Shown here: piece by piece, positions 48,570-64,000 of the stretch
How positions within the stretch are numbered: the first letter of the stretch is position 1
Layout of the letters: every line of letters begins with the position of its first letter
NCBI GenBank assembly: GCA_046329535.1
Contig: JAXLUN010000004.1
Location: 76,443-140,442 of the forward strand
Direction: 5' to 3'
DNA length: 64,000 nucleotides
Source of the DNA: Chitinophagales bacterium
GTDB lineage: Bacteria; Bacteroidota; Bacteroidia; Chitinophagales; LD1
Translations under genes and position numbers: made by a program
The notes under the pieces: model-generated
Told to the model about the DNA's origin: nothing
Databases searched by the model: none
What the model saw: the letters and a program-made list of their open reading frames with translations, nothing else

Positions 48570-48613
48570 GAGTAGAAAGTAATTTTAGATAAAGAGAGAA
48601 AACAAATTCAGTC

Positions 48614-49036: not shown

Positions 49037-49070
49037 GATAGTATTTTAACAAACAAGCTATAACCATATT

Positions 49071-49289
49071 ATGGGAGCAAATAAAAAATTGAATCAGGAA
49101 GACATTAAGCAGTTTGTAACGGAGGACTTAATTGCCAAAGTATCTGCAGATACTGCTGAATTGAAACGTCTGGAATTTAATCACGCGGTTACACCGCTTG
49201 ACAATCCGCTTAGCATTCGTGCCAAGAGAAGAGATGTGGCCAGATTGCGCACCGAATTGACAAAACGTAATAACGAGAAAAAAGCTTAA
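49071..49289 (+). CDS. rpmC: 50S ribosomal protein L29
   Basis: 72 aa with conserved operon position, and the motifs ELKRLEFNHA and IRAKRRDVARLRTEL. Confidence 0.9.
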   Translation: MGANKKLNQEDIKQFVTEDLIAKVSADTAELKRLEFNHAVTPLDNPLSIRAKRRDVARLRTELTKRNNEKKA

Positions 49290-49295
49290 TCAGCC

Positions 49296-49550
49296 ATGGA
49301 AAGAAATCTCAGAAAAGAAAGAATTGGTTTAGTAACCAGTGACAAAATGGATAAAACCATTACCGTTTCAATTGAAAGAAAGGTAAAGCACCCTATTTAT
49401 GGCAAGTTCGTGAAGACTACCAAAAGTTTCAAAGCACATGATGAAAAGAATGATGCTAAAGCCGGTGATACAGTAAAAATCAGTGAGACTCGTCCGCTTA
49501 GTAAGACTAAACGTTGGAGACTGGTAGAAGTGGTTGAGCGTGCTAAGTAA
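49296..49550 (+). CDS. rpsQ: 30S ribosomal protein S17
   Basis: [45 protein letters not shown]; 84 aa. Confidence 0.95.
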
Positions 49551-49597
49551 TCCTAATCGGGTCGCAGTTAATTTATATAAAACAGTAATTAAGTAAT

Positions 49598-49966
49598 ATG
49601 TTACAGCAAGAATCAAGAGCCAATGTGGCTGACAACAGCGGAGCAAAAGAAGTTTTGGTTATCCGTGTGTTAGGAGGAACCAGAAGAAGATATGCCAGCA
49701 TTGGTGACAAGGTAATTGTTGCTATTAAAAAGGCAATACCTACCGGAGGTGCTAAGAAAGGAACTGTTTCTACAGCTGTGGTGGTTAGAACCGCTAAGGC
49801 AATCAGAAGAAAGGATGGTTCATACATTCGTTTTGACGACAATGCAGTTGTGTTGTTAAATGCCCAGGATGAACCTAAAGGAACACGTATCTTCGGACCA
49901 GTTGCCCGTGAACTTCGTGATAAGCAGTTTATGAAAATTATTTCACTGGCTCCGGAAGTACTTTAA
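49598..49966 (+). CDS. rplN: 50S ribosomal protein L14
   Basis: [30 protein letters not shown]; 122 aa. Confidence 0.95.
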
Positions 49967-49998
49967 TTGATAACAGGATTTTAAGAAAATAAAGAATT

Positions 49999-50307
49999 AT
50001 GAAGTTTCATGTAAAAAAGAATGACGAAGTAATTATTATAGCAGGCGATGATAAAGGAAAGAAAGGCCGTATCATTGATGTAGATCGTCAGAAAGGGCGT
50101 GTGTTTGTAGATGGTGTTAATCTGAACAGTAAGCACACTAAGCCTAACGCAAAGAATCCTAATGGTGGTATTGTAAAAACGCCCGGCTCAATCAATATTT
50201 CCAATGTTCAGTTACTGTCAGATGGAAAACCAACCAGAATAGGACGTAAAGAGGAGAAGGGCAAAACGGTTCGTTTTTCTAAAAAGACCGGTAAGTCGTT
50301 AGACTAA
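49999..50307 (+). CDS. rplX: 50S ribosomal protein L24
   Basis: KOW motif VKKNDEVIIIAGDDKGKKGRI; 102 aa, in the conserved position after rplN. Confidence 0.9.
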   Translation: MKFHVKKNDEVIIIAGDDKGKKGRIIDVDRQKGRVFVDGVNLNSKHTKPNAKNPNGGIVKTPGSINISNVQLLSDGKPTRIGRKEEKGKTVRFSKKTGKSLD

Positions 50308-50331
50308 TTATAAACCGACAGCAAATTCAAA

Positions 50332-50357
50332 GGCGAAACATTGTTTCGCCTTTTTTA
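50332..50357 (+). terminator. Rho-independent terminator directly after rplX
   Basis: GGCGAAAC (50332-50339) pairs with GTTTCGCC (50343-50350) around a 3-nt loop and is followed by TTTTTTATTTT. Confidence 0.8.
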
Positions 50358-50388
50358 TTTTCATACCCTTAACTGCTGTGATCCCTCT

Positions 50389-50829
50389 ATGGAATGGAAA
50401 CTAAAGTTGTTTAACAAGTTAACGAATGAAGAGCTTTATGCTATTCTTCAGTTGCGGCAGCGAGTATTTATTGTAGAGCAGAACTGCCCTTACTTAGATA
50501 ATGACGGCAAGGACTTTTATGCGCACCATTTGTGGGTACTCGGGCAGGGGCAAATAGCGGCCTATTGCCGTTTGTTGCCGGCAGGAATAAGTTATGAGGA
50601 GGTATCGATTGGACGTGTAGTTACTGCGCCCGAAATGAGAGGAAAAGGCTATGGACAAAAACTGATGGCCAAGGCTCTTGAAACAATTGAAGAGTTATAT
50701 GGTCCTGTACCGGTGCGCATTGGAGCACAAGCCTATTTGAGAAAGTTTTATGAGGATTTTGGTTTTGTAGATGTAGGCGAACCTTATTTAGAAGATGGTA
50801 TACCGCATCTGATCATGCTACGGACATGA
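50389..50829 (+). CDS. GNAT-family N-acetyltransferase, ElaA-like
   Basis: ELYAILQLRQRVFIVEQNCPYLDNDGKD..HH is an ElaA signature, and the acetyl-CoA loop is RGKGYGQKLM. The track TTG start at 50341 lies inside the rplX terminator, so ATG at 50389 is preferred. Confidence 0.75.
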   Translation: MEWKLKLFNKLTNEELYAILQLRQRVFIVEQNCPYLDNDGKDFYAHHLWVLGQGQIAAYCRLLPAGISYEEVSIGRVVTAPEMRGKGYGQKLMAKALETIEELYGPVPVRIGAQAYLRKFYEDFGFVDVGEPYLEDGIPHLIMLRT

Positions 50830-50862: not shown

Positions 50863-53800
50863 TTACTTGAGCAAGGTTACAGTGCCTTTGTATTTTCGGT
50901 TTTCACCATCTAAAAATGTAATGTTAGCTACATAGCTATAAACCCCGGGGTAGGCATCTTTGCCCTGATAGGTACCATCCCAGCCGATGGTGGTATTGTT
51001 AGAGTCGAACACCTTTTCGCCCCAGCGGTTAAATACCGTAAGCTTAAAGTAAACGGTATTGAGCGCGTAAACGGTAAACACATCGTTTTGCCCGTTGCCA
51101 TCGGGGGTAAACACGTTAGGAATAAACACTTGCTTATCGGCCAATACATTTACCTGTATTTCGCCAGAGGCTGAGCAGCCATTAGGGTCGGTTACCACTA
51201 CTTGATACTCCATGCTGTGAATAGCTGAGAAAGCCGGCATGGCACAGTCTGTACAGCTTAGATAAACAGCCGGGCTCCAGCTATAGGTATAGCTATTGTT
51301 GGCCGGAGTAATATTTACGTTTAAGCCTATTTCAGTGCCAAAGGGTATAGAGTCGAAACTGAGGCTGTTAAGGGTAATCTGGTCGGGTTCGGTCACTACT
51401 ACGGAATCGCTGGACTGGCAGTTGTTGGCATCGTTTACGGTGATGTTGTAGGTAGCCGCACCAACGTTTTGCAATGGTGCACCTGCACTGCCATTGCTCC
51501 AGTTAAAATTATAAGGTGGAACGCCCCCGGTAGCGGATACCTGTGCGCCTCCATCGGTATAACCAAAGCAGGTAGCGTTGGTTACGTTATCTACACTTAA
51601 AAGGAGCGGGGCTGGCGATTGCACGGTATAGGTAGCGCTGTCTAAGCATTGATTGGCATCGTATACCACCACACCATAGCTGCCGGCCGAAAGGGCAGAA
51701 GCGGTAGCTGTGTTTTGAACCGGTGTGGTGTTCCACACATACGAGTAGGATGGAGTGCCGCTGTTGGCAGTAACTGTAATGGCAGCATCGGCTGCGGCAA
51801 AACAGCTTTCATCGGTAGCATTAACCAGCGACAGCACCGGATTGGGGTTAACCGTAACCGTTAAGGTATTGCTGGTGTATTGGCAGCCGTTGGCATCTTG
51901 GCCGCTAAGGGTAAAGCTGCCCGACTGGGTAACGTTTATGTTATTGCCGGTAGCATTGTTGCTCCACAGGTAGCTAACGTAGGTAGAGTCGGAAGTTAAA
52001 TCGACATTGCCGCCTTGGCAGAACGCAAGCGGCCCTGCGGCACTGATAGTGGTAGGGGCAGGCGGGTTGTAAGTAACATTGATAGTGTTGCTGATATACT
52101 GACAGCCGGCTGCATCTACTGCGCCCATAAACCAGGCCCCCGGTTGCGATACGGTAACCGAGTTGGCCGTTGAATTATCGCTCCATAAATACGTAGCATA
52201 CACCGAGTCGGAGGTAAGGGTAACGCTGCCGCCCGCACATACAGGTATAGCACCCCCTGCGCTAATGGTAGTAGCAGCCGGAGGGTTTACGGTAACATTT
52301 ACCGTATCGGTAGCAAAGCAAGCACCGTTTATACCTACTAAAACATAAGGAGTGGTAACCGGTGCTGCAGTAGTATTGGTGTTGGTGTAAGTTGGGTTAG
52401 AAACGGTAGAGTCGGACAGGTGAAGCGAAGGCTGCCACAAGTAGGTAAAGCCCGCAGCGGGTGCGCTGCCTATTTGCACGGTGCCGCCCGAACAAACCGC
52501 TACATCGGGGCCGGCATTTGAAACCGGAGCAGCCGTAATGGTAAGGGTTTGGCTAACCTGAGGCGATACACAGCCTCCATCGGTTACATCGAGGGTAATG
52601 GTTTTATTGCCAAAGCCGCTCCACAGCACCTGATAAGGGCCCTGGCCGCTGCCGCTTTGAATAGTGCCGCCATTAAAGTTCCAGGTGTAGTTGGCGCTGG
52701 TAGGCGAGGTGCCGGTGTAGTTAACGGTTACCGGATTGTTTTCGCACACGGTATCGGGTAAAATAACAAACGACTGAGCGCCTCCGCCCAAGATAGTTAC
52801 ATCAATATTATCTACATCGGCACAGCCCCAGCGGTCGGTTACCACTACATTGTAGGTAGTGTTTACCACCGGATTAACCACATACGGGTTGGCGGTTGAG
52901 TTGCCGGGGTTCCAGGTATACACATAAGGGGCCGAACCCAGCAGGGTAGAAGCCGAAAAGCTGAGCGTGCTGCCGCCACAAACGGCCGTATCGTTAGGTA
53001 TAGTTAATTGCGGACAAAGGTTTACTTCAATTACCGATACACTTTGGGTATTGCAGGGGTAGTCGTTCCATTGGCCCGAAGAGTAGATTTGCGGACAATC
53101 TTCGCCATTGGCGCAGCGGTAGGCCTCGCTGCTTTGGCAGCCGCCCAACCAATCGGGAAAACTGCAACACGAAGAGTTCTGCCCGTTATTATTCGGCTCG
53201 CCCGGTGCCCAGTTCAGGTAGGTCATAGGGGTGCCATCCAGGGTTACCCAGGTGCCTTCATTGGCCTGGTCGGTGTAGCCCACCCACACAGCCTGATTGC
53301 CCGATATAATGCCCGCAGCATTGAGTGCCGCCACCACGGCTGCGTTTTCGGCAGCATCGTTAAACACTACCAGGTGCGCGCCCAATTGGCGGGCGGCAGT
53401 TTCGGCAGCATTGGCATCTTGCGAGGTAGGGTTTATAAAATATAAGCTGCATTGCTGGCCTTGCACCCCGCTCAGCTCGTTGTAACCCGCAGCGGCAAAG
53501 GCAGCGCGCAGGGCAAACAAATCGCAGCCCGGAGGGCCGGTGCACACCTGTGTGGTTACAGTGGCCGTAGCCGTAGCCTGGCAACTGTAGCGGTCGGTTA
53601 CTTGTACCTGATACGAGGTAGTAGCGCTGGGGGTAATATCAAGAATAGACGAGTTGCCTACGGTAGCGCCACCGGGCAGTTCGCTCCAGGTATAGCTGTA
53701 AGGTTGCGAGCCCAAAATAGTAGTAGCCGAAGCCTGTGTGTGGTAGCCCGAGCAAACCGGCAGGGCCGGAACCGTAGTGGTTATTTGCGGACAAAGGTTT

Positions 53801-54375
53801 ACTTCAATTACCGATACACTTTGCCTATCGCAAGGCAGGTCGTTCCAGTTTCCACCGCCATATATCTGCACACAATCCTCCCCGTATTGACAGCGCCATG
53901 CCTGGCTGCTTTGGCAACCGCCCAAGGCATCGGGAAAATTGCAACACGATGACCCCTGCCCGTTGTTGTTAGGCTCGCCCGATGACCAGTTAAGGTAGGT
54001 CATAGGCGTGCCGTCAAGCGTTACCCAGGTGCCTTCGCTGGCAGCATCGGTGTAGCCTATCCACACAGCCTGGTTGGCCGATATAATGCCCGCTGCATTA
54101 AGGGCCGCTACCACAGCCGTGTTTTCGGCTGCATCGTTAAACACCACCAGGTGGCCGCCCAGTTGCTGAGCCGCTACCTCGGCTACGTTGGCATCTTGCG
54201 AAGTAGGGTTAATAAAATACATACTGCACGGCTGACCCTGCACGCCCGTAAGCTCTATATAGCCCGCATTGGTATAGGCGGTTCTGATTGCCTGAATATT
54301 GCAACCCACGGGTTGTGCTACCCCTATAAAACCAGTAAAGACCAACAAACTCAGTAACAATAAGAGGTTTTTCAT
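50863..54375 (-). CDS. Secreted protein with two tandem C-type lectin-like domains, Ig-like/SprB repeats and a T9SS type-B C-terminal domain
   Basis: Signal peptide MKNLLLLLSLLVFTGFIGVAQ. The CTLD signature occurs twice: WIGYTD..EGTWVTLDGTPMTYLNW..GEPNNNGQ..GEDCVQIY..GNWNDLPC. SprB-type repeats are present (GTPSYSYVWN, GGVPPYNFNWSNG). The C-terminus is FIPNVFTPDGNGQNDVF..VFNRWGEKVF..WDGTYQGK..GVYSYV..GTVTLLK. Confidence 0.85.
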   Translation of the reverse strand: MKNLLLLLSLLVFTGFIGVAQPVGCNIQAIRTAYTNAGYIELTGVQGQPCSMYFINPTSQDANVAEVAAQQLGGHLVVFNDAAENTAVVAALNAAGIISANQAVWIGYTDAASEGTWVTLDGTPMTYLNWSSGEPNNNGQGSSCCNFPDALGGCQSSQAWRCQYGEDCVQIYGGGNWNDLPCDRQSVSVIEVNLCPQITTTVPALPVCSGYHTQASATTILGSQPYSYTWSELPGGATVGNSSILDITPSATTSYQVQVTDRYSCQATATATVTTQVCTGPPGCDLFALRAAFAAAGYNELSGVQGQQCSLYFINPTSQDANAAETAARQLGAHLVVFNDAAENAAVVAALNAAGIISGNQAVWVGYTDQANEGTWVTLDGTPMTYLNWAPGEPNNNGQNSSCCSFPDWLGGCQSSEAYRCANGEDCPQIYSSGQWNDYPCNTQSVSVIEVNLCPQLTIPNDTAVCGGSTLSFSASTLLGSAPYVYTWNPGNSTANPYVVNPVVNTTYNVVVTDRWGCADVDNIDVTILGGGAQSFVILPDTVCENNPVTVNYTGTSPTSANYTWNFNGGTIQSGSGQGPYQVLWSGFGNKTITLDVTDGGCVSPQVSQTLTITAAPVSNAGPDVAVCSGGTVQIGSAPAAGFTYLWQPSLHLSDSTVSNPTYTNTNTTAAPVTTPYVLVGINGACFATDTVNVTVNPPAATTISAGGAIPVCAGGSVTLTSDSVYATYLWSDNSTANSVTVSQPGAWFMGAVDAAGCQYISNTINVTYNPPAPTTISAAGPLAFCQGGNVDLTSDSTYVSYLWSNNATGNNINVTQSGSFTLSGQDANGCQYTSNTLTVTVNPNPVLSLVNATDESCFAAADAAITVTANSGTPSYSYVWNTTPVQNTATASALSAGSYGVVVYDANQCLDSATYTVQSPAPLLLSVDNVTNATCFGYTDGGAQVSATGGVPPYNFNWSNGSAGAPLQNVGAATYNITVNDANNCQSSDSVVVTEPDQITLNSLSFDSIPFGTEIGLNVNITPANNSYTYSWSPAVYLSCTDCAMPAFSAIHSMEYQVVVTDPNGCSASGEIQVNVLADKQVFIPNVFTPDGNGQNDVFTVYALNTVYFKLTVFNRWGEKVFDSNNTTIGWDGTYQGKDAYPGVYSYVANITFLDGENRKYKGTVTLLK
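53008..54303 (-). repeat. Intragenic tandem duplication (~780-bp period) of the CTLD-plus-linker module
   Basis: Residues ~25-196 and ~284-456 are near-identical. At DNA level, for example, GCGGACAAAGGTTTACTTCAATTACCGATACACTTTG occurs at both ~53010 and ~53790. Confidence 0.85.
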
Positions 54376-54535: not shown

Positions 54536-55471
54536 CTAAAAAGTCAGCGAAAAATCGAGTTGGCTGATAGTGCCTTTGGGTATAGAGAAAGGTACCGCAG
54601 CCGTAATAAACCCGCTGGCAGTGCATTGCACCGTGTAGCTACCATAAGGCACACCCGTAATGCGGTAGATGCCTTCGCGATCGGTAAGGCCGGTGTCGCC
54701 TGTTTCTACCACGGTTATTGTTGCCCCGGCTATGGCTGTGGCATCGGCCTGGTTGGTTACGCTGCCGCGCAGCCCCGCAATGCCGGCCCCGCGAATGATG
54801 TAGAGGACTTTTTCCCACACAAATTGTTCGCGGAGTGCTTCATCGTTTCGAAAGGCGCGTTTCCCGTCTTTACAAAGCTGTATTATCTTATCGTATAAAG
54901 TATTGTTGGCTGTAATTTTAGCCTGTGTTTCCTGCTCACGCAGTTCTTCCTGATCTTGAAAATAGGAGAGAGCCAACTGAAAAGCGGCAGCTACATTGGT
55001 AAAGGTGGCGATAAAGACAGGCGGCATGTTGCCATTGGCTGTTAGCTGAGCGGTGTTATCGGTAAAAAACTGGATACCGCTTGCCATGAGGCCGGTGACG
55101 CTTTCCCAATCGAAGCCGGAAGCGGCCTGGTACTTTTTAGAGCCTGCTGCTTCGAGGGCAATTTTTTGCATGGCTCCTTTAAAGTCTTCGGCATCTTCAA
55201 TATAGCCTTTTAGCAGCTGCCAGGTATTGAGACATTTGGTTGCAGCGGTTTCGCATTCCAGCTTTATGGCTTTTACTACGGCTGCGCGGAAGTCTTCATC
55301 GGGCAGGGCTTCGGCTGCTGCCAGTTCGGTGAGGAGCGAGTTAAAATAGGGCAGGTCGTATTTAGGTTTAACGAGAGCGAGTTCGGGCTGTTTTCGAATG
55401 GCTGCCCGGATAACCATGCGGCCTGCCGAATAGAAGTCGGGCTGGCTGCAGTGATATTTTGCATCAGACAT
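54536..55471 (-). CDS. Hypothetical protein with a helical N-terminal ~225 aa and a C-terminal carboxypeptidase-regulatory-like beta-sandwich
   Basis: 311 aa. The C-terminal GSVTNQADATAIAGATITVVETGDTGLTDREGIYRITGVPYGSYTVQCTASGF fits the CarboxypepD_reg pattern. There is no signal peptide. Confidence 0.55.
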   Translation of the reverse strand: MSDAKYHCSQPDFYSAGRMVIRAAIRKQPELALVKPKYDLPYFNSLLTELAAAEALPDEDFRAAVVKAIKLECETAATKCLNTWQLLKGYIEDAEDFKGAMQKIALEAAGSKKYQAASGFDWESVTGLMASGIQFFTDNTAQLTANGNMPPVFIATFTNVAAAFQLALSYFQDQEELREQETQAKITANNTLYDKIIQLCKDGKRAFRNDEALREQFVWEKVLYIIRGAGIAGLRGSVTNQADATAIAGATITVVETGDTGLTDREGIYRITGVPYGSYTVQCTASGFITAAVPFSIPKGTISQLDFSLTF

Positions 55472-55639
55472 AGTTGTTTGTTTTAGAGATTAAGAAATAG
55501 AGAACCATGACAATAAGCGTTCGAACTGCTTGTGTTAGAAACGCATGGAGGAGTTTTAATATTGTGATTGGACTGTCATGGTATTGTCATAAATACAGCG
55601 GCAGACAGAAGTTAGTAAGATGGATGCTGAAAGGGTAGA

Positions 55640-55930
55640 GAGAAAAACAGCAGTACGCAAGAGTAAAGCCTGTATGGGTAGGAGAAAAGGCGGTGCCGGT
55701 AAGAGAAAAACCCGTATGAGGAGGAGAAAAGGGGGTACCGGATAGTGCCCGGGCGGTATGGGAAAGAGAAAAGGCGGGATTAGGCGGAGAAACGCCTGTG
55801 TTAGAAAGTGCAGAGGCTGAGTTGGGAAGAGAAAAGGCGGTACCGGTAAGAGAAAAACGCGCGGGTAGTAAGAGAAAAGCCTGTATAGGCAGGAGAAAGG
55901 GGGAGGCCGGATTTAGAAGGAGAAGACACC
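55640..55930. repeat. Degenerate 21-bp-phased repeat array with a conserved GAGAAAA core
   Basis: Cores fall at 55640, 55661, 55682, 55703, 55724, 55766, 55787, 55829, 55850, 55872 and 55893, on a 21-bp lattice with degenerate units at ~55745, ~55808 and ~55914. The array lies in the 710-bp divergent intergenic region. Confidence 0.8.
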
Positions 55931-56181
55931 GGGGGAGTAACCTTAAGCCCTCAACGCATAACAACTTTACCTTGGCTTTATTAACTTGCAGTAATGAAGT
56001 GTAAAACAGTGGAGGCATGAAAAGAAAGGGCGCAAGTGGTATTTTGTCTTGTTGCGGGAAGGAAACGGGTTTACCATTTGAGTATTTAATATGGTTTGAT
56101 GAGTAGACAATAAGCTTTGATTAGTAGTTAATAATTGTTTTATTTTACAAAAGAGATTAAGCACACTAAAAACCACCTACT

Positions 56182-59100
56182 ATGAAACACAAAATTTACA
56201 TCCTGCTTTTGTTTTGTATTTACGTTTGTTTAGCAGTAACAACGAGGGCACAAAGTATTGCGCTTACCGGTGGTAACGTAATACAATATTGCGGAGCAAA
56301 TCGCGTAGTGTCATTTACTGTGGACGGTATGACGAGTAATAATATTAGCGGGAGTTTTTCTATGCTAGGAGGAACAAGTTCTCCGTTTTTGAACATTGTA
56401 AATATTACCAGTAGTAACCCCTCCGTAAATATAATAACGGGAACGTTAAACGCAACTACTGTAAGTTATACTTTGACTGTTGGAACCGGCAATACAGAAG
56501 TGATAGATTTGAATGTAGAAATAGAACCCGACTGCGAGATATTTGATTTGTATGTTTCGGGACAATATCATGGCTTTAACGGGGCGTATCCTATACAGCG
56601 AGGCATCTCTGCCCAGTTAGGAACCAACCCAACTACCGATTTTCCGGTTACTATCAATTTTCCGCTGTTGGCTGTATCAAGTACACCGGTTAGTGGTAGC
56701 CAATCAACCAGTTGCAATTTGGTTTGGGATAATACTAACCAAGCGTATAGGCGGACAATACGAATTGTAAATAATGGGGAGCCGATGAGTCTTACCGGAG
56801 CAGAAGTAAGGTTTGTAGAAAATTTTAGTTCCGGGCTGCTAAATATAACCAGTGTAACAAATCAATCAAACAGTGTTCTAACGGGAGCGTTGCCCGCCAT
56901 ACCGGCAAATCCTTTTTATGTAACGATTAGCGGCAATAATCTTTCATTGGCCATTGATAATACTGACGGAGACGCCAATGTTTGGGGGCAGGGTGAAGTT
57001 TTAACGATGATTGAGGTGATTGATGACTGCCCGGAATTTAACTCCCAAATACATGTTGAGTACAGATGCGGGGAAATGCCGAGCGGAAATTATTGCTACG
57101 GCTCAGTGCCGTTTACCTGCCAAGGAACAGGAAGTAATACACCAGTTATTAGCGCTACTCTCTCAGGATTTGACCCCGCCTTTACACCAGATTACTGCTA
57201 TGGTACGGGCAATTTGAATCATTTTATTTTACAGTTAACGAATACATCTGCCACTGCAACTGATGCGGCTTTGGTAAAAGTATTTTTTGCAAATACTGTT
57301 GGTTCTATGACGACATTTAATTTCAATACACTTGCAGTTACTTCAAGTTTGGGCGGTGCGATTGCACACAGTATTGTTACGAGTAGCGCGGGCGTTAGTG
57401 TTGAGTTTGCTGCAAATACATATTTGCACCAATACGAAGTCTATACTTTGACATGGGATGGTAGTATTGGTTGCCCGGTTGGTGCGAGTTGTACGGATAT
57501 ATCGAGCATGTACAGAAGATATGAGTATGAGTATGAAGGAGGTTGTGAATTGGATAATCAGTATAATAAAGGGCCTTACGCTTTCTTTGACCCGAATACA
57601 GTGAGTGTGTATATGGGTGGGTTGAGCGTGCCACCAGCTATTGGGCCTACCAGTTTAGTGCATACAGGAACACCAGGAACAGATGCCAATGAAGCTGTAT
57701 CTACCTATGAAGTAAATATACCTGCAAATGTACCTTATGCGTTATGGCCAGGCAATGGGAATAACCGAGCGTATATTTTGAACTTTACCCTTTGTGAAGA
57801 TATGGTGTTTGAAAACAACGTAGATTGGGGAGGCGGATTAGTTACGAGTTCTGCGGCTATCATTCCTGATGTTTCAGTAATGATACCAGGAGTAACAGGA
57901 TGGACAAGTTTAAATAATCTGCCCTCGGGAATTTCGGCCATGTTTCAATCTTATAGCGGGGGTAGCGGTATTACACTGACCCTGCCATTTGGTACTAGTA
58001 TAGGCGGAGTGACTGTAGATGAAGATTTTTTGAACGGATTGAGTTTTCAAATTCGAGTAAGGCCGCACTGCGGTTCGGGCAATCCTCAATGTGCATTAAG
58101 TGTTACAGCTTCTTATGTACCTGACCGGACATGCGCTACACCTTGTACTATACCGATAGGTTGTAGTATTAAAAGGGTAAACATACAGTGCCCAGGTTGT
58201 ATTATAAGTGGAATTTACAGCAACGTTATGTATGGAGAGCGATACAGTGGAGATTATGGATTGATTGATGACGATGATAATGGGCTGGCAGATTCTCAGG
58301 TTTCTGCTTTTACGTCTACCAACAACCAAGTACGAAGAAAGACGCTGATGTATGGCGACCGAGTAGAGCTTAATTATAACGGGGAGGTTAACCTGGGTTC
58401 AGGTTATTTTCCTTCTGTATCTGCAACTGCAAACACGTTAACTGCTTTTGGAAATTTGATGGCAGGGAGCCCAACCGAGCAAACTTACTACGCAGCAAAT
58501 CAGGCAAAGTTGGGCTTCAATTATGCGTATCTCAGGGTTTCTTTTTCGGACGGAGACCCTATACCGGGTGTTGGTAACCATTTTGCAGATTTGATGACTG
58601 CAAGTGACGGAGACGGGACGGACCCACATCTTCTACTTACCATACATGACGGCACGAATGATTATAATTTCAACCTAAGCACCACCAACTCCGGTATTAA
58701 CAACTTTATGTATCGGAATACAATTGCTGCCGGTTCTACTGGAGGGGAGGATGAATACTTGTATGATATTTCGGTGGCAACTCTAAATTCCATAGGTCCC
58801 GATGTTTTACCGACCGGTAATGGTGGTTTCAGATACCATGACGGTGTAACCATAGATGCTAAACTTATTTACAAGTTAGACAGGAATGTAGGGGTTAACA
58901 ACAACTTTCCTTACGGATTGGACGAAGGTATTTCTGTTGGCTGCTATGGTTCACTGCGGGCAGTTGATATTGACAACCCTACAGATTGGCCTGTAGACCG
59001 AAGATATATACAATGCTCAACACCTTTTACAAGCCAAACAGTTTTGACGGGAGCTTGTAATAATCCAAATACATTAAGCACATGTAACAACCCTGTAAAC

Positions 59101-62100
59101 ACCCCTTCGGGGCAGGTAATGTGGAACAATGATTGCGCGAATGTGCAATGGGGCTGTGTAGAGGGCGTAGAAAGGATAAATATTACCGGGTTCGATTTTG
59201 ATTTTGCAGATTTTGACCCGCCCGTAATGAGAACCTGCGGGGTGTATTTTAATGCGTTTACAAACCATAACAATGAAACGGAAGGAAAAGGAGATGTGTT
59301 AGAAATAGGTTTAGAAAACACCGCTTCATTGGCAAGAAATTTTTTTCCATTCGAGTATAGAAACTGGATGAGGAAGAGGGATTTTGATGTTACTACCATT
59401 GCTAATTCCTGCTCGTTGCAAACTTCTCCGATTTTTCTTTGGATGAAACTTGTAATGACTACCGGTATTCCGGTTAATAACTCACTGTATCAATACAATC
59501 TTCTTCAAAATTTTACAACTGTAGCGCAAAATTGCAACAGTAATAACAATACATTATTTGGCTTTACATACGCCAATGCGGATTTACAGGGTTCTAATAC
59601 CGGAGTCGGTATGCGTTCGCCAGATGATATGCAGTTGTGGCGAGACCAGTCTTTTTTTGTAACCACACCTTGTACTACTCAATGCACTACCGGCATTGAG
59701 TTTTGTGTACGACAGGAGAATGATTTTAATCCTGATGTAACTATCAGCGGCAATACAAGTACTTTCAGCACCACACCCAATATTGCAGAAGGATTGGAGC
59801 CCAATATTCAATTAGTGCCGGACGGTCCTGATACCGAGAACGGAGAATTGACGGCAGTTGGCAGCAATACCCGATTTCTGCTTTCTAATTTTTCTACACC
59901 CGCCACAGTTCATCCGGAGTTAGTATGGAGTCAGTATCTTACACCGACCAACCCAATCGGAGTTAATGGGACCATAGTGTATGAGCTTCAGGTTGAAAAC
60001 CAATCTCTACTTGGCGATGCTCCCAACCCGTGGGTGTCTATTCATTTGCCTTTGCTTTCAGGTAGTTCTTTTTGGACAGGGGGTAGTGTAGAAATAATTG
60101 AGCCGGTTGCTTCAAATACTACATTGACCCCTCCCGGTTGTGGAAGTAACGGAACTACTACGGTAAATGGTGTAGGAGGGTTTCCTGATTATGCAGTACA
60201 ACCGGTTAATAGTTTTACGGAGATTGCCAACCTGCAAATGGTTCAGGTACCTATACCCACTTCGACAAACAACGCAGATTTAATTTTTCAGATTCCGCCT
60301 CAGGCAGGGCATCCGTATGATGTATTGCGCAGAACTGCTTTAGGTGATGGAAACAACAACTGCCCTTACCGTAAAAGCAATATGCGTGTGCGTATTACTT
60401 TAAACTACGATTGTGACAGAGTAGCCGAAGTGTTAGCTCTTTCTGCGCCACAGCACGATGCATTACAACCCTCTGTTTTTGCAGGTTATGCCTGTGATAA
60501 CGATATGGTACCTACCACCAATCCGATTTTTGATAATTTCTATACGAGTAATGCACCGGCAATAAATAACCAGACGAACGTAGCTCAACTTTTTGCGCAG
60601 CAAAGCTGCGATTATATAACGAGAGATCCTTTGCCTTTTGCTTTGGTAGGTACGGTGGTAACGCATGCGCAGTCGCCAGTAACGGGAAGCCAAATAGAAA
60701 TTTGTAACACCGATTTAAGTTTTAGCTGGAGCAATACAGGTGTGGGCGGATTAACCGGTGTTTCATTAGATGTAAGTAATTTGCCTATGGGTGTTACTTT
60801 GCCAGATCCCGTTTATTTTACGGTTGGCGGGCAAACGTATCCTGTTTCAGATACACTTAATACTAACACATATGATTTAAGTGCACACCTTGCCTCTCTG
60901 CCTACTCCTATTTCCTTTGTGCCGCAGGGAGAAACAGTAACTGCCACTATACACTTAGCTGCCGGATGCCATGCAGCGTTAGATGGAGAGTCATTAATTT
61001 TTACACAATACAGTCAGCCGTATTGTTATCCTTTAAACCCTTTGAATTCTACGGCATTTCAGCAGGTAACTAGTTATACCATTAATAGTGAGCCGTTAAA
61101 TCTTACGGCCAATATGTTAACCGATTGCAGTAACCAAGTTGAGTTTACGGCCAGTGGAGGATGTGGTAGTATTTATGAATGGAGGGAAGGCGGTGTGTTG
61201 CTGGGAACCGGTAATCCATTTACTTTTATGTTTAGTAGTGCCGGATTGCATACCGTAACGTGTAATTCGGGTGATTGCTCAGCCACTGTTGATGTGGATG
61301 TTGTACCGACTTTAGATGTAACCGTTACTGTGCAGCATGAGGTATGCGGATTAGCGAATGGGGAAGTTGAAGTTAGCGTAGGTAACGGCACAGCGGATTA
61401 TACTTATGATTTAGGCGGAACCGGACTTACCACTAACCAGGCGAACCACACCTTTGCAAATTTAGGAGCACATTTGTACACGTTAACTGTGAATGATGTG
61501 AACGGTTGCAGTTTTACAACACAGGTAGATATTAAGAGCATTACTGATCCGGTTGTTACTATTACTAAAGAAGCATTTACCTGTAAAGGACTTATTGAGT
61601 TAACTGCCACACCCGGCTTTGACAGTTATGAATGGAGTACACATGAAACCGGTAGCAGTATAGGAGTAGGTGTTGATGGTAACTATGGTGTAACTGCTAA
61701 TATAGGCGGCTGTAGTGCAAGTGCAGATATAAATGTAAGTGTTATGCCTACTGCATTTACTTTTCAAGGGCAAACTTATAATCCTGTAATAATTGGAGCT
61801 AATATGGCTAGTGTAACGAGTTTGACTAATGATTTGATTGTTCCCGGAATATTACCAAGTATCTCTACCTCAAAAAATTTGGTTGTCTATGGTAAACTTG
61901 TAATAGACCAGAATTATTGGTTTGAGATGGACCACGTTTGGATGGGAGAGGGTGCAGTGATAGAAATAGCACCAAGCACTTTGTTTGACATAACACAAAC
62001 AGGAAGCCTTGCGGTAGATATAAGGTCTGTTGGAAGTTGTATGTGGAGAGGGATAAAAACAGGAAAACTTGATGCCATAAGAATTAGAAATTTACACATA

Positions 62101-64000
62101 GAGGATGCTGAATATGCTGTTGAGTTAGCCGATTTGATAAAAGCACGAATAGTTAACTCAACGTTTAACAGAAACTTTACAGGTATTTACACAGCTACAC
62201 ACCCTACTGGCGGCACATACAATCTACAATCAACCATTATTAACAGCAATACGTTTGATTGCACGGCTCCGCTTTACGAACCTTATACTGGTATGTTGAC
62301 TGATTATCCTAATCAACCAAACACAGGCGAAATAACCACTACCCGCTGGAGTTGGGCAGGTGTAAATTTAAATGATGTTGGTTATATAGGCATAGGCGGT
62401 AAAAATCTTGCAACTGCCAACACTTTTAGAAATATATCCAACGGTATTTGGCTAAACCGCAGCAACGTAACCTTAACCTACAATAACTACATAGATTTAC
62501 CAGAAAGCAATCATGGAACAGCTTATCAGTTATTCACTAACCCTAACGCACCCATAACACCTAACACCCCCATACGAAACGGGTATGCGGTTTATGCCAG
62601 CGGAAATAATTTGGATTATGTATTAGAACTAACAAAAGATAATAATATGCAGGCATGCCATTACGGAGTGTATGCCAAGTTAGGAATGAATGTTTCTGTA
62701 AAAGGCGGTAACATGCAAAACATGATGTGCGGTATTTTGATACAAAATTGCAGAAACCGAAATATTGACATTGGCTCGTGCCATATCGGTATTAATAATA
62801 CTACACAATCTTATGGTAGTGGCAATTTTAAAGGTGTGGGTATAAAAATAGATAACAGTCGCTCGCCTTCTAATATAGGATACATATCGCTACACAACAA
62901 TCGCCTAAATATTACAGGAGGTAGTTTCTTTGCAAACAACACGTCAGCATCTAAAGGAGTTGGCATCAGCATTAACGATAACACAGCGAATAACGGAAGC
63001 CCTGTGGATGTAATTGACAATGGAATTGTATTAAAAGATGCTGAAACAGGTATGCGTTTTTTAGGCATTAGCGGACAAAATACGGCTGTGAATATTACCC
63101 ACAACCGGGTTTGGTTAGAGGGTATAAGCGCTAACAACACCAACAACAATAAAAATGGAGTAGAATTGAGCAACTGCGACCATGTTAGCATAGAAGAAAA
63201 CACTGTAAGCGGAATAGACGCCAATACTACTAATGGCAGTGCCAACGCTTTTTACCCGCGCGGTTTCCGCTTGCAGTATTCATCTAAAAATACAGTGCGA
63301 TGCAACCGAGCGTTTAATTTACGGAGCGGCTACCGGTTTGAAAGTGTTTGCGACAATACTGATTTTGCCAGTAACGATATTGGCGTAGATGCCACTACAC
63401 CTATAGAGGATGTGAATGGAAATATACTAAACACACACCCCGAGTATTACAATTACGTGGGTTTATATATTACTCCCAACGGCCAAGGCATTATAGGCCC
63501 ACAAACACCTAATAAGGGCAACCGGTGGTATGGTGGCAGTAACTACAGCACAAACCTTTTTAGCTCTAACAAGGCGGCTAAAAATTTGAATATAAATACT
63601 GTGCAATTTTACCCCATAGAGATAACGCCTTACGGTTCCTTTACAGATAATCAAAGCCCGGATAACCAAGATTTCGTAGCGCCACCTAATTTAAACTGGT
63701 TTCAAATAAATGCTACACCCGGCCAAGAATGCAGCCCAAGCGTCCCTGCCGCATTGGTAAATGGAGGCGGAGGAACTTTGCGGTTTACCGAGTTTGAAAA
63801 AAGTATAATAGCCGATGAATATGACCCGGTGCTTTACCCTGAAACCGGCAACTGGTTGGCTGACCGCTATGTTTACAAGAAATTGAGAGAGAATGAAACT
63901 GAATTAGCAATGGGAACAATAGAAAAGCAGTTTTATGACAGCTTATCAAACACGGCCATAAAAGATTTTGAGCAGATAGAAACCGAAAAAACTTTAGCCA
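56182..64000 (+). CDS. Giant secreted Cys-rich surface protein (3'-truncated by the window; at least 2606 codons) with an SprB/Ig-like segment and right-handed beta-helix (PbH1-like) repeats
   Basis: This ORF is not in the supplied track because it has no stop in the window. I read frame 1 line by line from the ATG at 56182 (preceded by an in-frame TAA at 56167) to 64000 and found no stop codon. The signal peptide is MKHKIYILLLFCIYVCLAVTTRAQS. An SprB-like unit is VCGLANGEVEVSVGNGTADYTYDL..YTLTVNDVNGC. The beta-helix rungs at ~62.1-63.4 kb include NSTFNRNFTGIY, HNNRLNITGGSF, THNRVWLEGIS and EENTVSGID. Confidence 0.9.
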   Translation, partial: MKHKIYILLLFCIYVCLAVTTRAQSIALTGGNVIQYCGANRVVSFTVDGMTSNNISGSFSMLGGTSSPFLNIVNITSSNPSVNIITGTLNATTVSYTLTVGTGNTEVIDLNVEIEPDCEIFDLYVSGQYHGFNGAYPIQRGISAQLGTNPTTDFPVTINFPLLAVSSTPVSGSQSTSCNLVWDNTNQAYRRTIRIVNNGEPMSLTGAEVRFVENFSSGLLNITSVTNQSNSVLTGALPAIPANPFYVTISGNNLSLAIDNTDGDANVWGQGEVLTMIEVIDDCPEFNSQIHVEYRCGEMPSGNYCYGSVPFTCQGTGSNTPVISATLSGFDPAFTPDYCYGTGNLNHFILQLTNTSATATDAALVKVFFANTVGSMTTFNFNTLAVTSSLGGAIAHSIVTSSAGVSVEFAANTYLHQYEVYTLTWDGSIGCPVGASCTDISSMYRRYEYEYEGGCELDNQYNKGPYAFFDPNTVSVYMGGLSVPPAIGPTSLVHTGTPGTDANEAVSTYEVNIPANVPYALWPGNGNNRAYILNFTLCEDMVFENNVDWGGGLVTSSAAIIPDVSVMIPGVTGWTSLNNLPSGISAMFQSYSGGSGITLTLPFGTSIGGVTVDEDFLNGLSFQIRVRPHCGSGNPQCALSVTASYVPDRTCATPCTIPIGCSIKRVNIQCPGCIISGIYSNVMYGERYSGDYGLIDDDDNGLADSQVSAFTSTNNQVRRKTLMYGDRVELNYNGEVNLGSGYFPSVSATANTLTAFGNLMAGSPTEQTYYAANQAKLGFNYAYLRVSFSDGDPIPGVGNHFADLMTASDGDGTDPHLLLTIHDGTNDYNFNLSTTNSGINNFMYRNTIAAGSTGGEDEYLYDISVATLNSIGPDVLPTGNGGFRYHDGVTIDAKLIYKLDRNVGVNNNFPYGLDEGISVGCYGSLRAVDIDNPTDWPVDRRYIQCSTPFTSQTVLTGACNNPNTLSTCNNPVNTPSGQVMWNNDCANVQWGCVEGVERINITGFDFDFADFDPPVMRTCGVYFNAFTNHNNETEGKGDVLEIGLENTASLARNFFPFEYRNWMRKRDFDVTTIANSCSLQTSPIFLWMKLVMTTGIPVNNSLYQYNLLQNFTTVAQNCNSNNNTLFGFTYANADLQGSNTGVGMRSPDDMQLWRDQSFFVTTPCTTQCTTGIEFCVRQENDFNPDVTISGNTSTFSTTPNIAEGLEPNIQLVPDGPDTENGELTAVGSNTRFLLSNFSTPATVHPELVWSQYLTPTNPIGVNGTIVYELQVENQSLLGDAPNPWVSIHLPLLSGSSFWTGGSVEIIEPVASNTTLTPPGCGSNGTTTVNGVGGFPDYAVQPVNSFTEIANLQMVQVPIPTSTNNADLIFQIPPQAGHPYDVLRRTALGDGNNNCPYRKSNMRVRITLNYDCDRVAEVLALSAPQHDALQPSVFAGYACDNDMVPTTNPIFDNFYTSNAPAINNQTNVAQLFAQQSCDYITRDPLPFALVGTVVTHAQSPVTGSQIEICNTDLSFSWSNTGVGGLTGVSLDVSNLPMGVTLPDPVYFTVGGQTYPVSDTLNTNTYDLSAHLASLPTPISFVPQGETVTATIHLAAGCHAALDGESLIFTQYSQPYCYPLNPLNSTAFQQVTSYTINSEPLNLTANMLTDCSNQVEFTASGGCGSIYEWREGGVLLGTGNPFTFMFSSAGLHTVTCNSGDCSATVDVDVVPTLDVTVTVQHEVCGLANGEVEVSVGNGTADYTYDLGGTGLTTNQANHTFANLGAHLYTLTVNDVNGCSFTTQVDIKSITDPVVTITKEAFTCKGLIELTATPGFDSYEWSTHETGSSIGVGVDGNYGVTANIGGCSASADINVSVMPTAFTFQGQTYNPVIIGANMASVTSLTNDLIVPGILPSISTSKNLVVYGKLVIDQNYWFEMDHVWMGEGAVIEIAPSTLFDITQTGSLAVDIRSVGSCMWRGIKTGKLDAIRIRNLHIEDAEYAVELADLIKARIVNSTFNRNFTGIYTATHPTGGTYNLQSTIINSNTFDCTAPLYEPYTGMLTDYPNQPNTGEITTTRWSWAGVNLNDVGYIGIGGKNLATANTFRNISNGIWLNRSNVTLTYNNYIDLPESNHGTAYQLFTNPNAPITPNTPIRNGYAVYASGNNLDYVLELTKDNNMQACHYGVYAKLGMNVSVKGGNMQNMMCGILIQNCRNRNIDIGSCHIGINNTTQSYGSGNFKGVGIKIDNSRSPSNIGYISLHNNRLNITGGSFFANNTSASKGVGISINDNTANNGSPVDVIDNGIVLKDAETGMRFLGISGQNTAVNITHNRVWLEGISANNTNNNKNGVELSNCDHVSIEENTVSGIDANTTNGSANAFYPRGFRLQYSSKNTVRCNRAFNLRSGYRFESVCDNTDFASNDIGVDATTPIEDVNGNILNTHPEYYNYVGLYITPNGQGIIGPQTPNKGNRWYGGSNYSTNLFSSNKAAKNLNINTVQFYPIEITPYGSFTDNQSPDNQDFVAPPNLNWFQINATPGQECSPSVPAALVNGGGGTLRFTEFEKSIIADEYDPVLYPETGNWLADRYVYKKLRENETELAMGTIEKQFYDSLSNTAIKDFEQIETEKTLA

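What the first reader, a model, noticed from the sequence alone, without database searches (positions are those of the whole stretch)
56182..64000. Giant ORF of more than 2600 codons that is invisible in the supplied ORF track
Seen in sequence: frame 1 is free of stop codons from the ATG at 56182 to the window end, checked codon by codon, while only short ORFs are listed there. The product starts with a signal peptide, is Cys-rich, and contains ~1700 aa with no motif I recognise. It then has an SprB/Ig-like segment (~61.3-61.75 kb) and at least 12 beta-helix-like rungs (~62.1-63.4 kb). Inference: this is a very large, probably T9SS-secreted, adhesin or polysaccharide-active surface protein whose N-terminal two thirds may represent novel domains. 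Its promoter region contains the phased array described above.
Basis: seen in the sequence. Interest (0 to 1): 0.55.

Follow-up and report, generated by a model that had tools for sequence, protein, structure and literature searches.

The report
Giant type IX-secreted surface protein gene

Summary
Frame 1 is open from ATG 56182 to the window end: 2606 codons, no stops, against 94-233 stops in the other five frames. The ORF was "invisible" only because ORF lists omit ORFs that run off the end of the sequence.

The full protein is on record: NCBI MFN8322868.1, 2868 aa, 100% identical, from a Chitinophagales MAG. It ends in a type A T9SS sorting domain that scores above the curated cut-offs.

Domain order:
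- signal peptide;
- a ~1600-aa non-repetitive, Cys-rich module with no Pfam, NCBIfam or PDB match;
- SprB/PKD-like Ig domains (aa ~1600-1885);
- a right-handed beta-helix (aa ~1886-2400);
- a helical linker;
- the sorting domain.

The N-terminal module is a real family but very rare: 8 hits among 1.84 billion representative proteins. In relatives it is joined to other C-terminal ends, including a type B sorting domain.

The beta-helix-linker-sorting-domain cassette recurs in 24 Bacteroidota genomes behind unrelated N-terminal parts. It is often followed by a ~520-aa secreted partner gene.

Most likely this is a cell-surface fibre or adhesin assembled from shuffled modules. It is a new member of a known kind and of modest interest. 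The fold and ligand of the N-terminal module remain unknown.

The parts
56182..56253 (+). Start codon and Sec-type signal peptide (aa 1-24; predicted cleavage TRA|QS)
   Evidence: ATG 56182 is the first start after the in-frame stop TAA at 56167. The n-region, h-region and c-region are read directly from the translation. The homologues also begin with a hydrophobic N-terminus. No signal-peptide predictor was available.
56254..61071 (+). N-terminal module (aa ~25-1630): non-repetitive, Cys-rich, mostly beta, with no known domain. It defines a very rare family (P0001, P0002, P0107, P0108, P0113 and fragments).
   Evidence: There are no Pfam, NCBIfam or PDB matches. Only the protein itself and P0002 were found among 5.8 billion proteins, and only 8 hits among 1.84 billion representatives. 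P0107 aligns collinearly over aa 106-1789 at 25% identity, E 4e-82. The four-way alignment conserves mainly Cys, Gly, Pro and aromatic residues. No internal repeats were found by BLAST or hhalign. The AlphaFold2 model is unreliable (mean pLDDT 41).
58045..58413 (+). Most conserved sub-module of the N-terminal module (aa ~622-744). It holds the invariant C-P-G-C motif (aa 670-673) within V-Q-C-P-G-C-x-x-x-G-x-Y, followed by an acidic D-x-D-x-N-G-x-A-D loop that looks like a calcium-binding site (aa 696-704).
   Evidence: This is the only part shared by all eight family sequences. C112, C122, C131, P132, G133 and C134 are invariant in the 7-sequence alignment A7. The calcium-binding and disulfide roles are inferred from sequence only.
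61072..61836 (+). Three or so Ig-like domains of SprB/PKD type (aa ~1631-1885), acting as a spacer
   Evidence: 102 of 104 database hits align only here. Pfam PKD_4 matches aa 1735-1782 at E 4e-4 and 20.8 bits, below the cut-off of 27. SprB-like motifs C-x-G-x-N-G-x-V-x-V-x-V are at aa 1722 and 1801. The region aligns to the SprB-repeat region of P0113.
61837..63381 (+). Right-handed parallel beta-helix (aa ~1886-2400, about 15 rungs). It is the first part of a conserved C-terminal cassette.
   Evidence: The AlphaFold2 model has pLDDT mostly 70-90 and about 47 short strands. All top Foldseek PDB hits are beta-helix proteins: AlgG, RbmB, PL6 lyase, DFA-IIIase, phage tailspikes and pertactin. 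Homologue P0105 matches Pfam NosD at 23.8 bits against a cut-off of 23.6. The most conserved motifs are I-E-D-A-E-Y-A and N-x-T-F-N-R-N.
63382..63801 (+). Conserved region after the beta-helix (aa ~2401-2540), structure unresolved
   Evidence: It is conserved in the four-sequence alignment, for example G-N-R-W-x-G, D-W-F and one Cys. The AlphaFold2 pLDDT is below 40 here.
63802..64000 (+). Start of the alpha-helical, Glu/Lys-rich linker (aa 2541-~2790). The window ends at codon 2606. The remaining 262 residues, including the type A sorting domain at aa 2791-2865, lie outside the window.
   Evidence: Helices are predicted at model residues 638-702. The composition is E 12%, K 9%.

Best explanation

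Shown here: it has a Sec-type signal peptide, a type A C-terminal sorting domain and an intact reading frame.

Inferred from established T9SS biology (review PMC10202324): the Sec system exports the protein to the periplasm, where it folds and forms disulfides from its 60 Cys. The T9SS recognises the C-terminal domain and moves the protein across the outer membrane. The PorU sortase then cleaves that domain, and the protein is either linked by its new C-terminus to anionic LPS or released.

Inferred from the anatomy: because attachment is at the C-terminus, the helical linker and the rigid beta-helix would form the part nearest the cell. The Ig-like domains would act as a spacer. The ~1600-residue disulfide-rich N-terminal module would be the outermost head that contacts a ligand such as a surface, a polysaccharide or another cell. 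On this reading it is a fibrillar adhesin.

The protein is a mosaic of two separately shuffled units. The N-terminal module also occurs in front of SprB/PKD plus a type B sorting domain, and in front of HYR/SprB/C-type lectin plus a type A sorting domain. The beta-helix-linker-sorting-domain cassette occurs behind unrelated N-terminal parts.
For: Intact gene.

Type A sorting domain above curated cut-offs in the 100%-identical full-length record.

T9SS setting: three further T9SS cargo genes lie in the same window.

Beta-helix fold: with a NosD match in homologue P0105.

Ig-like region.

The cassette as a reusable base:
- 24 loci in GTDB species genomes share only aa ~1630-2868.
- Their N-terminal parts differ: M43 peptidase + SprBx7 + DUF11, PKDx6, or Ig_7.

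The N-terminal module as a reusable head:
- P0107 has it with SprBx6 + PKD + CHU_C/TIGR04131.
- P0113 has it with HYR + SprB + Lectin_C + PKD + Por_Secre_tail.

Conservation pattern: residues conserved across the four long N-terminal modules are mainly Cys, Gly, Pro, Trp, Tyr and Phe. That is what a structural or binding scaffold shows, not an enzyme active site.

Comparators: SprB and GhpA are giant T9SS substrates that carry their functional ends far from the cell (bioRxiv 10.1101/2024.01.29.577165).
Against: No binding activity, ligand or surface location has been shown.

The fold of the N-terminal module could not be predicted: mean pLDDT was 41 with a 7-sequence alignment. Its Foldseek hits to tandem beta-sandwich adhesins have TM-scores near 0.1 and come from a low-confidence model.

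The beta-helix resembles polysaccharide lyases and epimerases as much as it resembles scaffolds. Its most conserved motif, IEDAEYA, is acidic and could be catalytic.

Type A cargo can be released instead of anchored (PMC10202324).

No T9SS core genes were seen in the window, and the gene's downstream neighbours in this genome could not be retrieved.
Confidence: 0.6

Rival explanations
1. It is mainly a polysaccharide-active enzyme (lyase, epimerase or hydrolase). The beta-helix is the catalytic domain, and the N-terminal module and Ig domains bind or position the substrate.
For: The best Foldseek matches of the beta-helix model are AlgG alginate epimerase, RbmB polysaccharide lyase, PL6 alginate lyases, DFA-IIIase and phage tailspike depolymerases. 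The cassette's most conserved motif is acidic, [HRI]-I-[EQ]-D-A-[EQ]-Y-A. Many T9SS cargoes are glycan-degrading enzymes (PMC10202324, PMC11205867).
Against: TM-scores are only 0.2-0.4 with rmsd above 11 A, so only the generic fold is matched. P0001 itself matches no Pfam or NCBIfam beta-helix or carbohydrate-enzyme family even at E 5. The same cassette sits next to the sorting domain behind unrelated parts, including an M43 peptidase. That fits a scaffold better than a shared enzyme. Pertactin, a non-enzymatic beta-helix, is also among the hits.
Confidence: 0.2
2. The protein is one part of a multi-protein surface assembly. The beta-helix-linker cassette docks or co-assembles with the ~500-590-aa T9SS-secreted protein or proteins encoded just downstream in related loci. 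The N-terminal module is the exchangeable tip of that structure.
For: In 10 of about 18 cassette loci that include downstream sequence, one to four paralogous genes follow on the same strand. Each has a signal peptide, a ~420-aa unknown domain, sometimes a PKD domain, and a type A sorting domain. In at least 8 of the 10 the first of them overlaps the stop codon or starts within 90 bp of it. The orthologue P0002 has a 4-bp overlap.
Against: The downstream region of this gene lies outside the window and could not be retrieved. The linkage is not universal. No interaction has been shown, and the partner's fold is unknown: Pfam gives only weak WD40-like hints and PDB gives nothing. This reading is compatible with the best explanation and adds to it.
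Confidence: 0.15
3. The long open frame is an assembly or sequencing artefact, a fusion of separate genes, or a dead pseudogene.
For: The source is a metagenome-assembled genome, and no expression data exist.
Against: There are no stops in 2606 codons, with a chance probability near 1e-74. The protein aligns end to end with an independent 40%-identical orthologue from another assembly, with 55 of 62 Cys conserved. P0107 is collinear over aa 106-1789. The signal peptide and sorting domain are at the correct ends.
Confidence: 0.02

Closest known systems
RemA-type and other large type A CTD cargo proteins of the T9SS (Flavobacterium johnsoniae RemA; Pfam PF18962 / TIGR04183 cargo in general)
   Same: It has an N-terminal Sec signal peptide, a large multidomain passenger and a type A C-terminal sorting domain above the curated thresholds. 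It occurs in Bacteroidota. The expected route is PorV-dependent export followed by PorU cleavage (PMC10202324).
   Different: The passenger has no lectin or other recognised binding domain. Its first ~1600 residues form an undescribed, non-repetitive module. The sorting domain is preceded by a conserved beta-helix plus helical-linker cassette.
SprB gliding-motility adhesin (F. johnsoniae, 6497 aa)
   Same: It is a giant T9SS-secreted surface protein of Bacteroidota. P0001 has a short stretch of SprB-like Ig repeats, and its 102 partial homologues are SprB/PKD-repeat proteins.
   Different: SprB consists of dozens of SprB repeats and has a type B sorting domain that needs SprF. P0001 has only 2-3 SprB-like units, none reaching the Pfam threshold. 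It has a type A sorting domain and is mostly non-repetitive.
GhpA grappling-hook protein of Aureispira (5898 aa; bioRxiv 10.1101/2024.01.29.577165)
   Same: It is a giant T9SS substrate from the same broad lineage (Saprospiria/Chitinophagia). The C-terminus is next to the cell and a specialised end points outward. It is stabilised by disulfides.
   Different: No sequence similarity to any PDB chain was detected. GhpA is an Ig-repeat stem that forms heptamers and is encoded next to PorP/PorE homologues. Neither oligomerisation nor such neighbours could be tested here.
Right-handed parallel beta-helix proteins (pectate-lyase-like fold: AlgG, RbmB, PL6 lyases, phage tailspikes, pertactin, NosD)
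   Same: The predicted fold of aa ~1886-2400 matches. There is a marginal NosD sequence match in homologue P0105 and a NosD hit at E 0.06 with the cassette profile against PDB.
   Different: P0001 has no significant sequence match to any of these families. Structural superpositions are loose (TM 0.2-0.4). Catalytic residues could not be assigned.

Membership tests
T9SS type A cargo protein | C-terminal type A sorting domain (Pfam PF18962 Por_Secre_tail / TIGR04183) above the curated threshold | tested here: met
   In P0001, which is 100% identical to the window ORF, aa 2791-2865 score 33.8 bits for PF18962 (cut-off 27) and 25.6 bits for TIGR04183 (cut-off 23). The domain lies 185 codons beyond the window end.
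T9SS type A cargo protein | [quoted passage not shown] | tested here: met
   The sequence MKHKIYILLLFCIYVCLAVTTRA|QS has a basic n-region, a hydrophobic core and small residues at -3 and -1. There is no lipobox. This was judged by inspection only, because no predictor was available.
T9SS type A cargo protein | Host encodes the T9SS machinery (SprA/Sov, PorV, PorU, GldK-N) | tested here: inconclusive
   No core T9SS genes were identified among the window ORFs scanned. Three other cargo genes with CHU_C sorting domains are present, at 3-3395, 40665-44438 and 50863-54375. The record is from Chitinophagales in Bacteroidota.
T9SS type A cargo protein | Secretion that depends on the T9SS, with cleavage of the sorting domain by PorU | not testable with these tools
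   This needs proteomics or genetics, and the organism is known only as a MAG.
SprB-family gliding adhesin | Long array of SprB repeats (PF13573) | tested here: not met
   P0001 has no SprB Pfam hit even at E 5, and P0002 has one at E 2. Only two SprB-like motifs were found by pattern.
SprB-family gliding adhesin | Type B sorting domain (PF13585 / TIGR04131) with a cognate PorP/SprF gene | tested here: not met
   The sorting domain is type A. The distant relative P0107 does carry type B.
Right-handed parallel beta-helix (pectate-lyase-like / NosD / CASH) | Beta-helix fold | tested here: met
   The AlphaFold2 model of aa 1900-2400 has pLDDT mostly 70-90 and pTM 0.65. All of the top 50 Foldseek PDB hits are beta-helix proteins, the best at E 1e-4. 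The model rests on only four sequences.
Right-handed parallel beta-helix (pectate-lyase-like / NosD / CASH) | Significant sequence match to a beta-helix family model | tested here: inconclusive
   P0001 has none. Homologue P0105 matches NosD at 23.8 bits against a cut-off of 23.6. The cassette profile hits NosD chain 7o0y at E 0.06.
Polysaccharide lyase / glycoside hydrolase with a beta-helix catalytic domain | Family-specific catalytic residues or a match to a carbohydrate-active enzyme family | not testable with these tools
   No carbohydrate-enzyme (CAZy) library was available. Structural alignments are too loose (TM 0.2-0.4) to transfer active-site residues.
PKD domain | Pfam PKD/PKD_4 above the gathering threshold | tested here: not met
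   PKD_4 scores 20.8 bits against 27, and PKD scores 13.6-14.6 against 23.5. The region is Ig-like by homology to SprB/PKD proteins but does not meet the PKD threshold.

The most novel reading that the evidence does not exclude
The ~1600-residue N-terminal module could be a new, non-repetitive, disulfide-stapled fold family. It has an invariant C-P-G-C motif and acidic loops that look like calcium-binding sites. It would serve as an exchangeable outer 'head' on T9SS surface fibres.

The beta-helix-linker-type A sorting-domain cassette, together with the ~520-aa T9SS partner genes that often follow it, could be an undescribed surface assembly or anchoring system. It would be restricted to Saprospiraceae, Chitinophagales and Flavobacteriales.
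Probability: 0.25. Interest if true: 0.6.

Novelty: new member of a known kind. Interest (0 to 1): 0.3.

Why it matters
Giant T9SS cargo proteins govern how environmental Bacteroidota stick to, glide on, prey on or digest their surroundings. Most of their sequence is unannotated.

This gene adds two concrete units to that picture. One is a very rare ~1600-aa head module. The other is a reusable beta-helix-linker-sorting-domain base that is often linked to a secreted partner gene. Both are defined well enough here to be turned into family models and tested. If the head proves to be a new fold or a new binding principle, it would be worth a structural study.

As it stands, the finding mainly corrects a gap in the ORF listing. 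It describes an already deposited but uncharacterised protein.

Tried and rejected
1. Retrieving the source contig to see the 3' end and downstream genes failed. P0001 and the neighbouring 311-aa protein are not in the contig index. The source MAG is not among the GTDB species representatives. The 3' end therefore comes only from the protein record.

2. Known domains in the N-terminal module: Pfam at E up to 5, NCBIfam, and PDB by sequence and by profile all gave nothing.

3. Cryptic internal repeats in the N-terminal module were not found. Self-BLAST gave none. An hhalign scan of 140-aa windows from the four-sequence alignment gave a best E of 0.015 at 3% probability.

4. Structure of the N-terminal module: AlphaFold2 on aa 540-1700 with 7 sequences gave mean pLDDT 41 and pTM 0.32. 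Its Foldseek hits to tandem beta-sandwich adhesins and pilins have TM near 0.1. I treat these as uninformative except for a hint of beta-sandwich domains at aa ~1490-1640.

5. Two scans of metagenome contigs for more N-terminal-module relatives, using the motifs FPFEY / APNPWV and VQCPGC, confirmed no relatives.

6. P0108 first looked like a stand-alone N-terminal module. This was rejected: its gene ends at a stop codon 75 bp before a transposase-like ORF, so it is truncated by a mobile element.

8. A sigma-70 promoter scan of the upstream region found no more than chance. Bacteroidota promoters are not covered by that scan.

9. The Bacteroidota O-glycosylation motif D-[ST]-[AILVMT] is not enriched: 7 sites against about 10 expected.

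10. The first exhaustive protein search failed because the profile exceeded 1200 positions. It was repeated with aa 560-1690, so aa 1-559 were searched only with the word-indexed tool.
Full report
**Observation**

Translating window 56182-64000 on the + strand gives 2606 codons without a stop. The nearest upstream in-frame stop is TAA at 56167, and ATG 56182 is the first start codon after it. This frame has no stops, while the other five frames of the same 7.8 kb have 94-233. From the region's base composition, the chance of an open frame this long is about 1e-74.

The ORF is missing from the ORF list only because the lister drops ORFs that run off an end of the source (and the tool description). 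The 'invisibility' is therefore a listing rule.

**Identity and intactness**

A search of 5.8 billion proteins returns P0001. It is 2868 aa, 100% identical over the whole query, and named by NCBI 'MAG: T9SS type A sorting domain-containing protein [Chitinophagales bacterium]'. Its accession is MFN8322868.1 and it sits on a 523-kb contig. The window therefore lacks the last 262 codons.

One full-length orthologue exists. P0002 is 2835 aa and 40% identical, from a MAG labelled uncultured Chitinophaga. The two align collinearly end to end, identity is 20-60% in every 100-residue block, and 55 of 62 cysteines are conserved. Two independent assemblies with the same uninterrupted architecture rule out frameshift, chimera and pseudogene explanations.

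**Secretion signals**

The N-terminus, MKHKIYILLLFCIYVCLAVTTRA|QS, has the shape of a Sec signal peptide. This is read from the sequence, with no predictor.

The C-terminus of P0001 (aa 2791-2865) matches the type A T9SS sorting domain above both curated cut-offs. Pfam PF18962 scores 33.8 bits against 27, and TIGR04183 scores 25.6 against 23.

The window also holds three cargo genes with type B sorting domains:
- 3-3395: SprBx11 + CHU_C.
- 40665-44438: PKD + CHU_C.
- 50863-54375: C-type lectin + SprB + CHU_C.

The genomic setting is therefore a T9SS-rich member of Bacteroidota. No T9SS core genes were seen in the parts of the window I scanned.

**Architecture**

(i) *aa 1-24:* signal peptide.

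(ii) *aa ~25-1630:* a Cys-rich region (2.0-2.9% Cys) with no Pfam, NCBIfam or PDB match, even with a profile and E up to 10.

(iii) *aa ~1631-1885:* Ig-like domains of SprB/PKD type.
- All 102 partial homologues align only within aa ~1500-1950.
- Pfam PKD_4 is below threshold at 20.8 bits against 27.
- SprB-like motifs occur at aa 1722 and 1801.

(iv) *aa ~1886-2400:* a right-handed parallel beta-helix.
- AlphaFold2 with a four-sequence alignment gives pLDDT mostly 70-90 and about 47 short strands.
- Every one of the top 50 Foldseek PDB matches is a beta-helix protein. They include AlgG epimerase (E 1e-4), RbmB lyase, PL6 alginate lyases, DFA-IIIase, HK620 and CBA120 tailspikes, and pertactin.
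- TM-scores are only 0.2-0.4, so only the fold class is established.
- Homologue P0105 marginally matches Pfam NosD, at 23.8 bits against 23.6.

(v) *aa ~2401-2540:* conserved, but not modelled with confidence.

(vi) *aa ~2541-2790:* a Glu/Lys-rich helical linker containing a conserved two-Cys motif, AEKCFLEAGDAVFEARAMLAIIE...YDIC.

(vii) *aa 2791-2865:* the sorting domain.

**The N-terminal module is a real but very rare family**

A profile of aa 1-1690 finds only P0001 and P0002 among 5.8 billion proteins. An exhaustive HMMER search with aa 560-1690 against 1.84 billion cluster representatives gives 8 hits at E <= 1e-3.
- P0107 (2616 aa) is collinear with P0001 over aa 106-1789 at 25% identity, E 4e-82.
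- P0108 (1644 aa) aligns over the core. Its gene ends at a stop codon 75 bp upstream of a transposase-like ORF, so it is a truncated copy and not a stand-alone form.
- P0109, P0110 and P0112 are fragments. P0110's cluster contains the full-length P0113 of 3432 aa.
- P0111 matches only short acidic repeats, and I regard it as noise.

Two metagenome scans with family motifs added nothing.

The four long sequences align throughout. The conserved residues are mainly Cys, Gly, Pro, Trp, Tyr and Phe.

The segment shared by all members is aa ~622-744. It has an invariant C-P-G-C inside V-Q-C-P-G-C-x-x-x-G-x-Y, followed by R..YG..D.D.NG.AD. I read C-P-G-C as a disulfide-stapled turn and the acidic loop as a possible calcium site. 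Both readings are inference from sequence.

The module has no internal repeats by BLAST or by profile-profile comparison. This sets it apart from the repetitive stalks of SprB or GhpA.

Its structure could not be predicted: mean pLDDT was 41. The Foldseek matches of that model, to tandem beta-sandwich adhesins and pilins at TM near 0.1, carry little weight.

**Modularity**

The N-terminal module is joined to different C-terminal ends:
- Ig domains, beta-helix and a type A sorting domain in P0001 and P0002.
- SprBx6, PKD and a type B sorting domain in P0107.
- PKD, SprB, HYRx2, a C-type lectin and a type A sorting domain in P0113.

Conversely, the beta-helix-linker-sorting-domain cassette is found in P0105 (1003 aa) and P0106 (1222 aa, with two PKD domains). 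It is also in 24 loci of GTDB species genomes, mostly Saprospiraceae, Chitinophagales and Flavobacteriales MAGs. These share only aa ~1630-2868 with P0001.

Their N-terminal parts are unrelated to one another. Examples are M43 peptidase + SprBx7 + DUF11, PKDx6, and Ig_7.

A cassette that always sits next to the sorting domain and carries varied parts in front of it looks like a base or stalk, not the shared active component.

**Linked gene**

In 10 of about 18 cassette loci that include downstream sequence, one to four paralogous genes follow on the same strand. In at least 8 of the 10 the first of them overlaps the stop codon or starts within 90 bp of it. In the P0002 locus the overlap is 4 bp.

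Each encodes a ~500-590-aa protein with a signal peptide, a ~420-aa unknown domain, sometimes a PKD domain, and a type A sorting domain. The unknown domain has no PDB match and only weak WD40-like hints.

Whether the gene in this window has such a neighbour cannot be seen. The region is beyond the window and the contig could not be retrieved.

**Mechanism**

*Shown:* an intact gene, a signal peptide, a type A sorting domain, Ig-like domains, a beta-helix fold, and the shuffling of two units.

*From established T9SS biology (PMC10202324):*
- The Sec system exports the protein, which folds in the periplasm.
- The T9SS recognises the C-terminal domain and moves the protein through SprA/Sov.
- PorV hands it to the PorQUZ complex.
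- PorU cleaves the C-terminal domain. The protein is then linked to anionic LPS or released.

*Inferred:* the even number of 60 Cys in the mature protein suggests full disulfide pairing. C-terminal attachment puts the linker and beta-helix near the cell and the N-terminal module at the far end. The conservation pattern suggests that this module is a binding or structural head.

I therefore favour a fibrillar adhesin or surface fibre, at 0.6 for the combined statement. The T9SS-cargo part alone is about 0.9.

The main rival is a polysaccharide-active enzyme that uses the beta-helix, at 0.2. It is supported by the fold matches and the conserved acidic IEDAEYA motif. It is weakened by the lack of any family-level match and by the cassette's promiscuous pairing.

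A multi-protein assembly with the downstream partner (0.15) would extend the favoured model rather than compete with it.

**Comparison with known systems**

The protein meets the tested defining features of a T9SS type A cargo protein.

It is not an SprB-family adhesin. It lacks a repeat array and has the wrong type of sorting domain.

It shares no detectable sequence with GhpA or any other solved structure. Functionally it most resembles those giant T9SS surface proteins.

**Novelty and score**

The sequence is already deposited and generically annotated. Giant T9SS cargo with unannotated regions is common in Bacteroidota MAGs. I file it as a new member of a known kind, with interest 0.3.

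The most novel reading that the evidence does not exclude has two parts: the N-terminal module is a new fold family acting as an exchangeable head, and the cassette plus partner gene form an undescribed surface assembly system. I give this probability about 0.25 and interest 0.6 if true.

**Upstream region**

The 710-bp gap between this gene and the divergent gene ending at 55471 contains GAGAAAA-anchored units spaced at multiples of 21 bp, from 55640 to 55925. A second 21-bp tandem repeat of 2.7 copies lies at 56079-56134.

The array is unique within the window. It is absent from the 166-bp upstream region of the orthologue. Nothing links it to regulation of this gene.

Noticed in passing
window 55640-55925: There is an array of GAGAAAA-anchored units with start-to-start spacings of 21, 42, 63 and 64 bp. 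Tandem Repeats Finder reports period 21, 9.4 copies and 58% matches. It lies 260-540 bp upstream of the giant gene and occurs nowhere else in the window. A 143-aa ORF on the minus strand (55587-56018) reads through it as seven-residue peptide repeats (FSLTGTA and similar) and has no Pfam match. The upstream region of the orthologue in L001 has no such array.
   Followed up: partly
window 56079-56134: A second 21-bp tandem repeat (TGAGTAGTTAATAAGCTTTGA, 2.7 copies, 77% matches) lies 48-103 bp upstream of the start codon. It contains TTTG-type elements that could be Bacteroidota promoter motifs. This was not tested.
   Followed up: no
L001 18505-20079; L003, L005, L006, L007, L009, L010, L014, L016, L020 just downstream of the cassette gene: A family of ~500-590-aa T9SS type A cargo proteins is encoded directly downstream of genes that carry the beta-helix-linker-sorting-domain cassette, often in 2-4 tandem paralogues. 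Each has a signal peptide, a ~420-aa unknown domain and sometimes a PKD domain. In the P0002 locus the gene overlaps the stop codon by 4 bp, and two more copies lie upstream.
   Followed up: partly
window 54536-55471 (-) and L001 8863-9336 / 9409-9834 (+): The divergent upstream neighbour is a 311-aa protein with a CarboxypepD_reg domain. It has a counterpart directly upstream of the orthologue P0002, but there it is split into two ORFs and lies in the opposite relative orientation. Identity is 34% for the N-terminal part and 25% for the C-terminal part.
   Followed up: partly
window 47844-50829: The ribosomal protein genes rpsC (47844-48569) and rplX (49999-50307) are followed directly by a GNAT acetyltransferase gene (50341-50829). 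After that comes a convergent T9SS lectin gene, not the rest of the usual ribosomal protein cluster. The cluster appears to be interrupted after L24.
   Followed up: no
window 3-3395, 40665-44438, 50863-54375: The same 64-kb window holds three further large T9SS cargo genes with type B (CHU_C) sorting domains: SprBx11; PKDx3; and two C-type lectin domains plus SprB repeats.
   Followed up: partly
L028 6319-12585: The distant family member P0108 (1644 aa) ends at a stop codon 75 bp before a transposase-like ORF. It is therefore an insertion-truncated copy of an N-terminal-module gene. The P0002 locus (L001) also carries two transposase genes nearby.
   Followed up: partly
L001 9960-10030: The recorded start of P0002 (TTG at 10001) gives a shortened signal peptide compared with P0001. 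The frame stays open upstream (…RRICTLILFCVCVC…), so the start may be called wrongly in the record.
   Followed up: no
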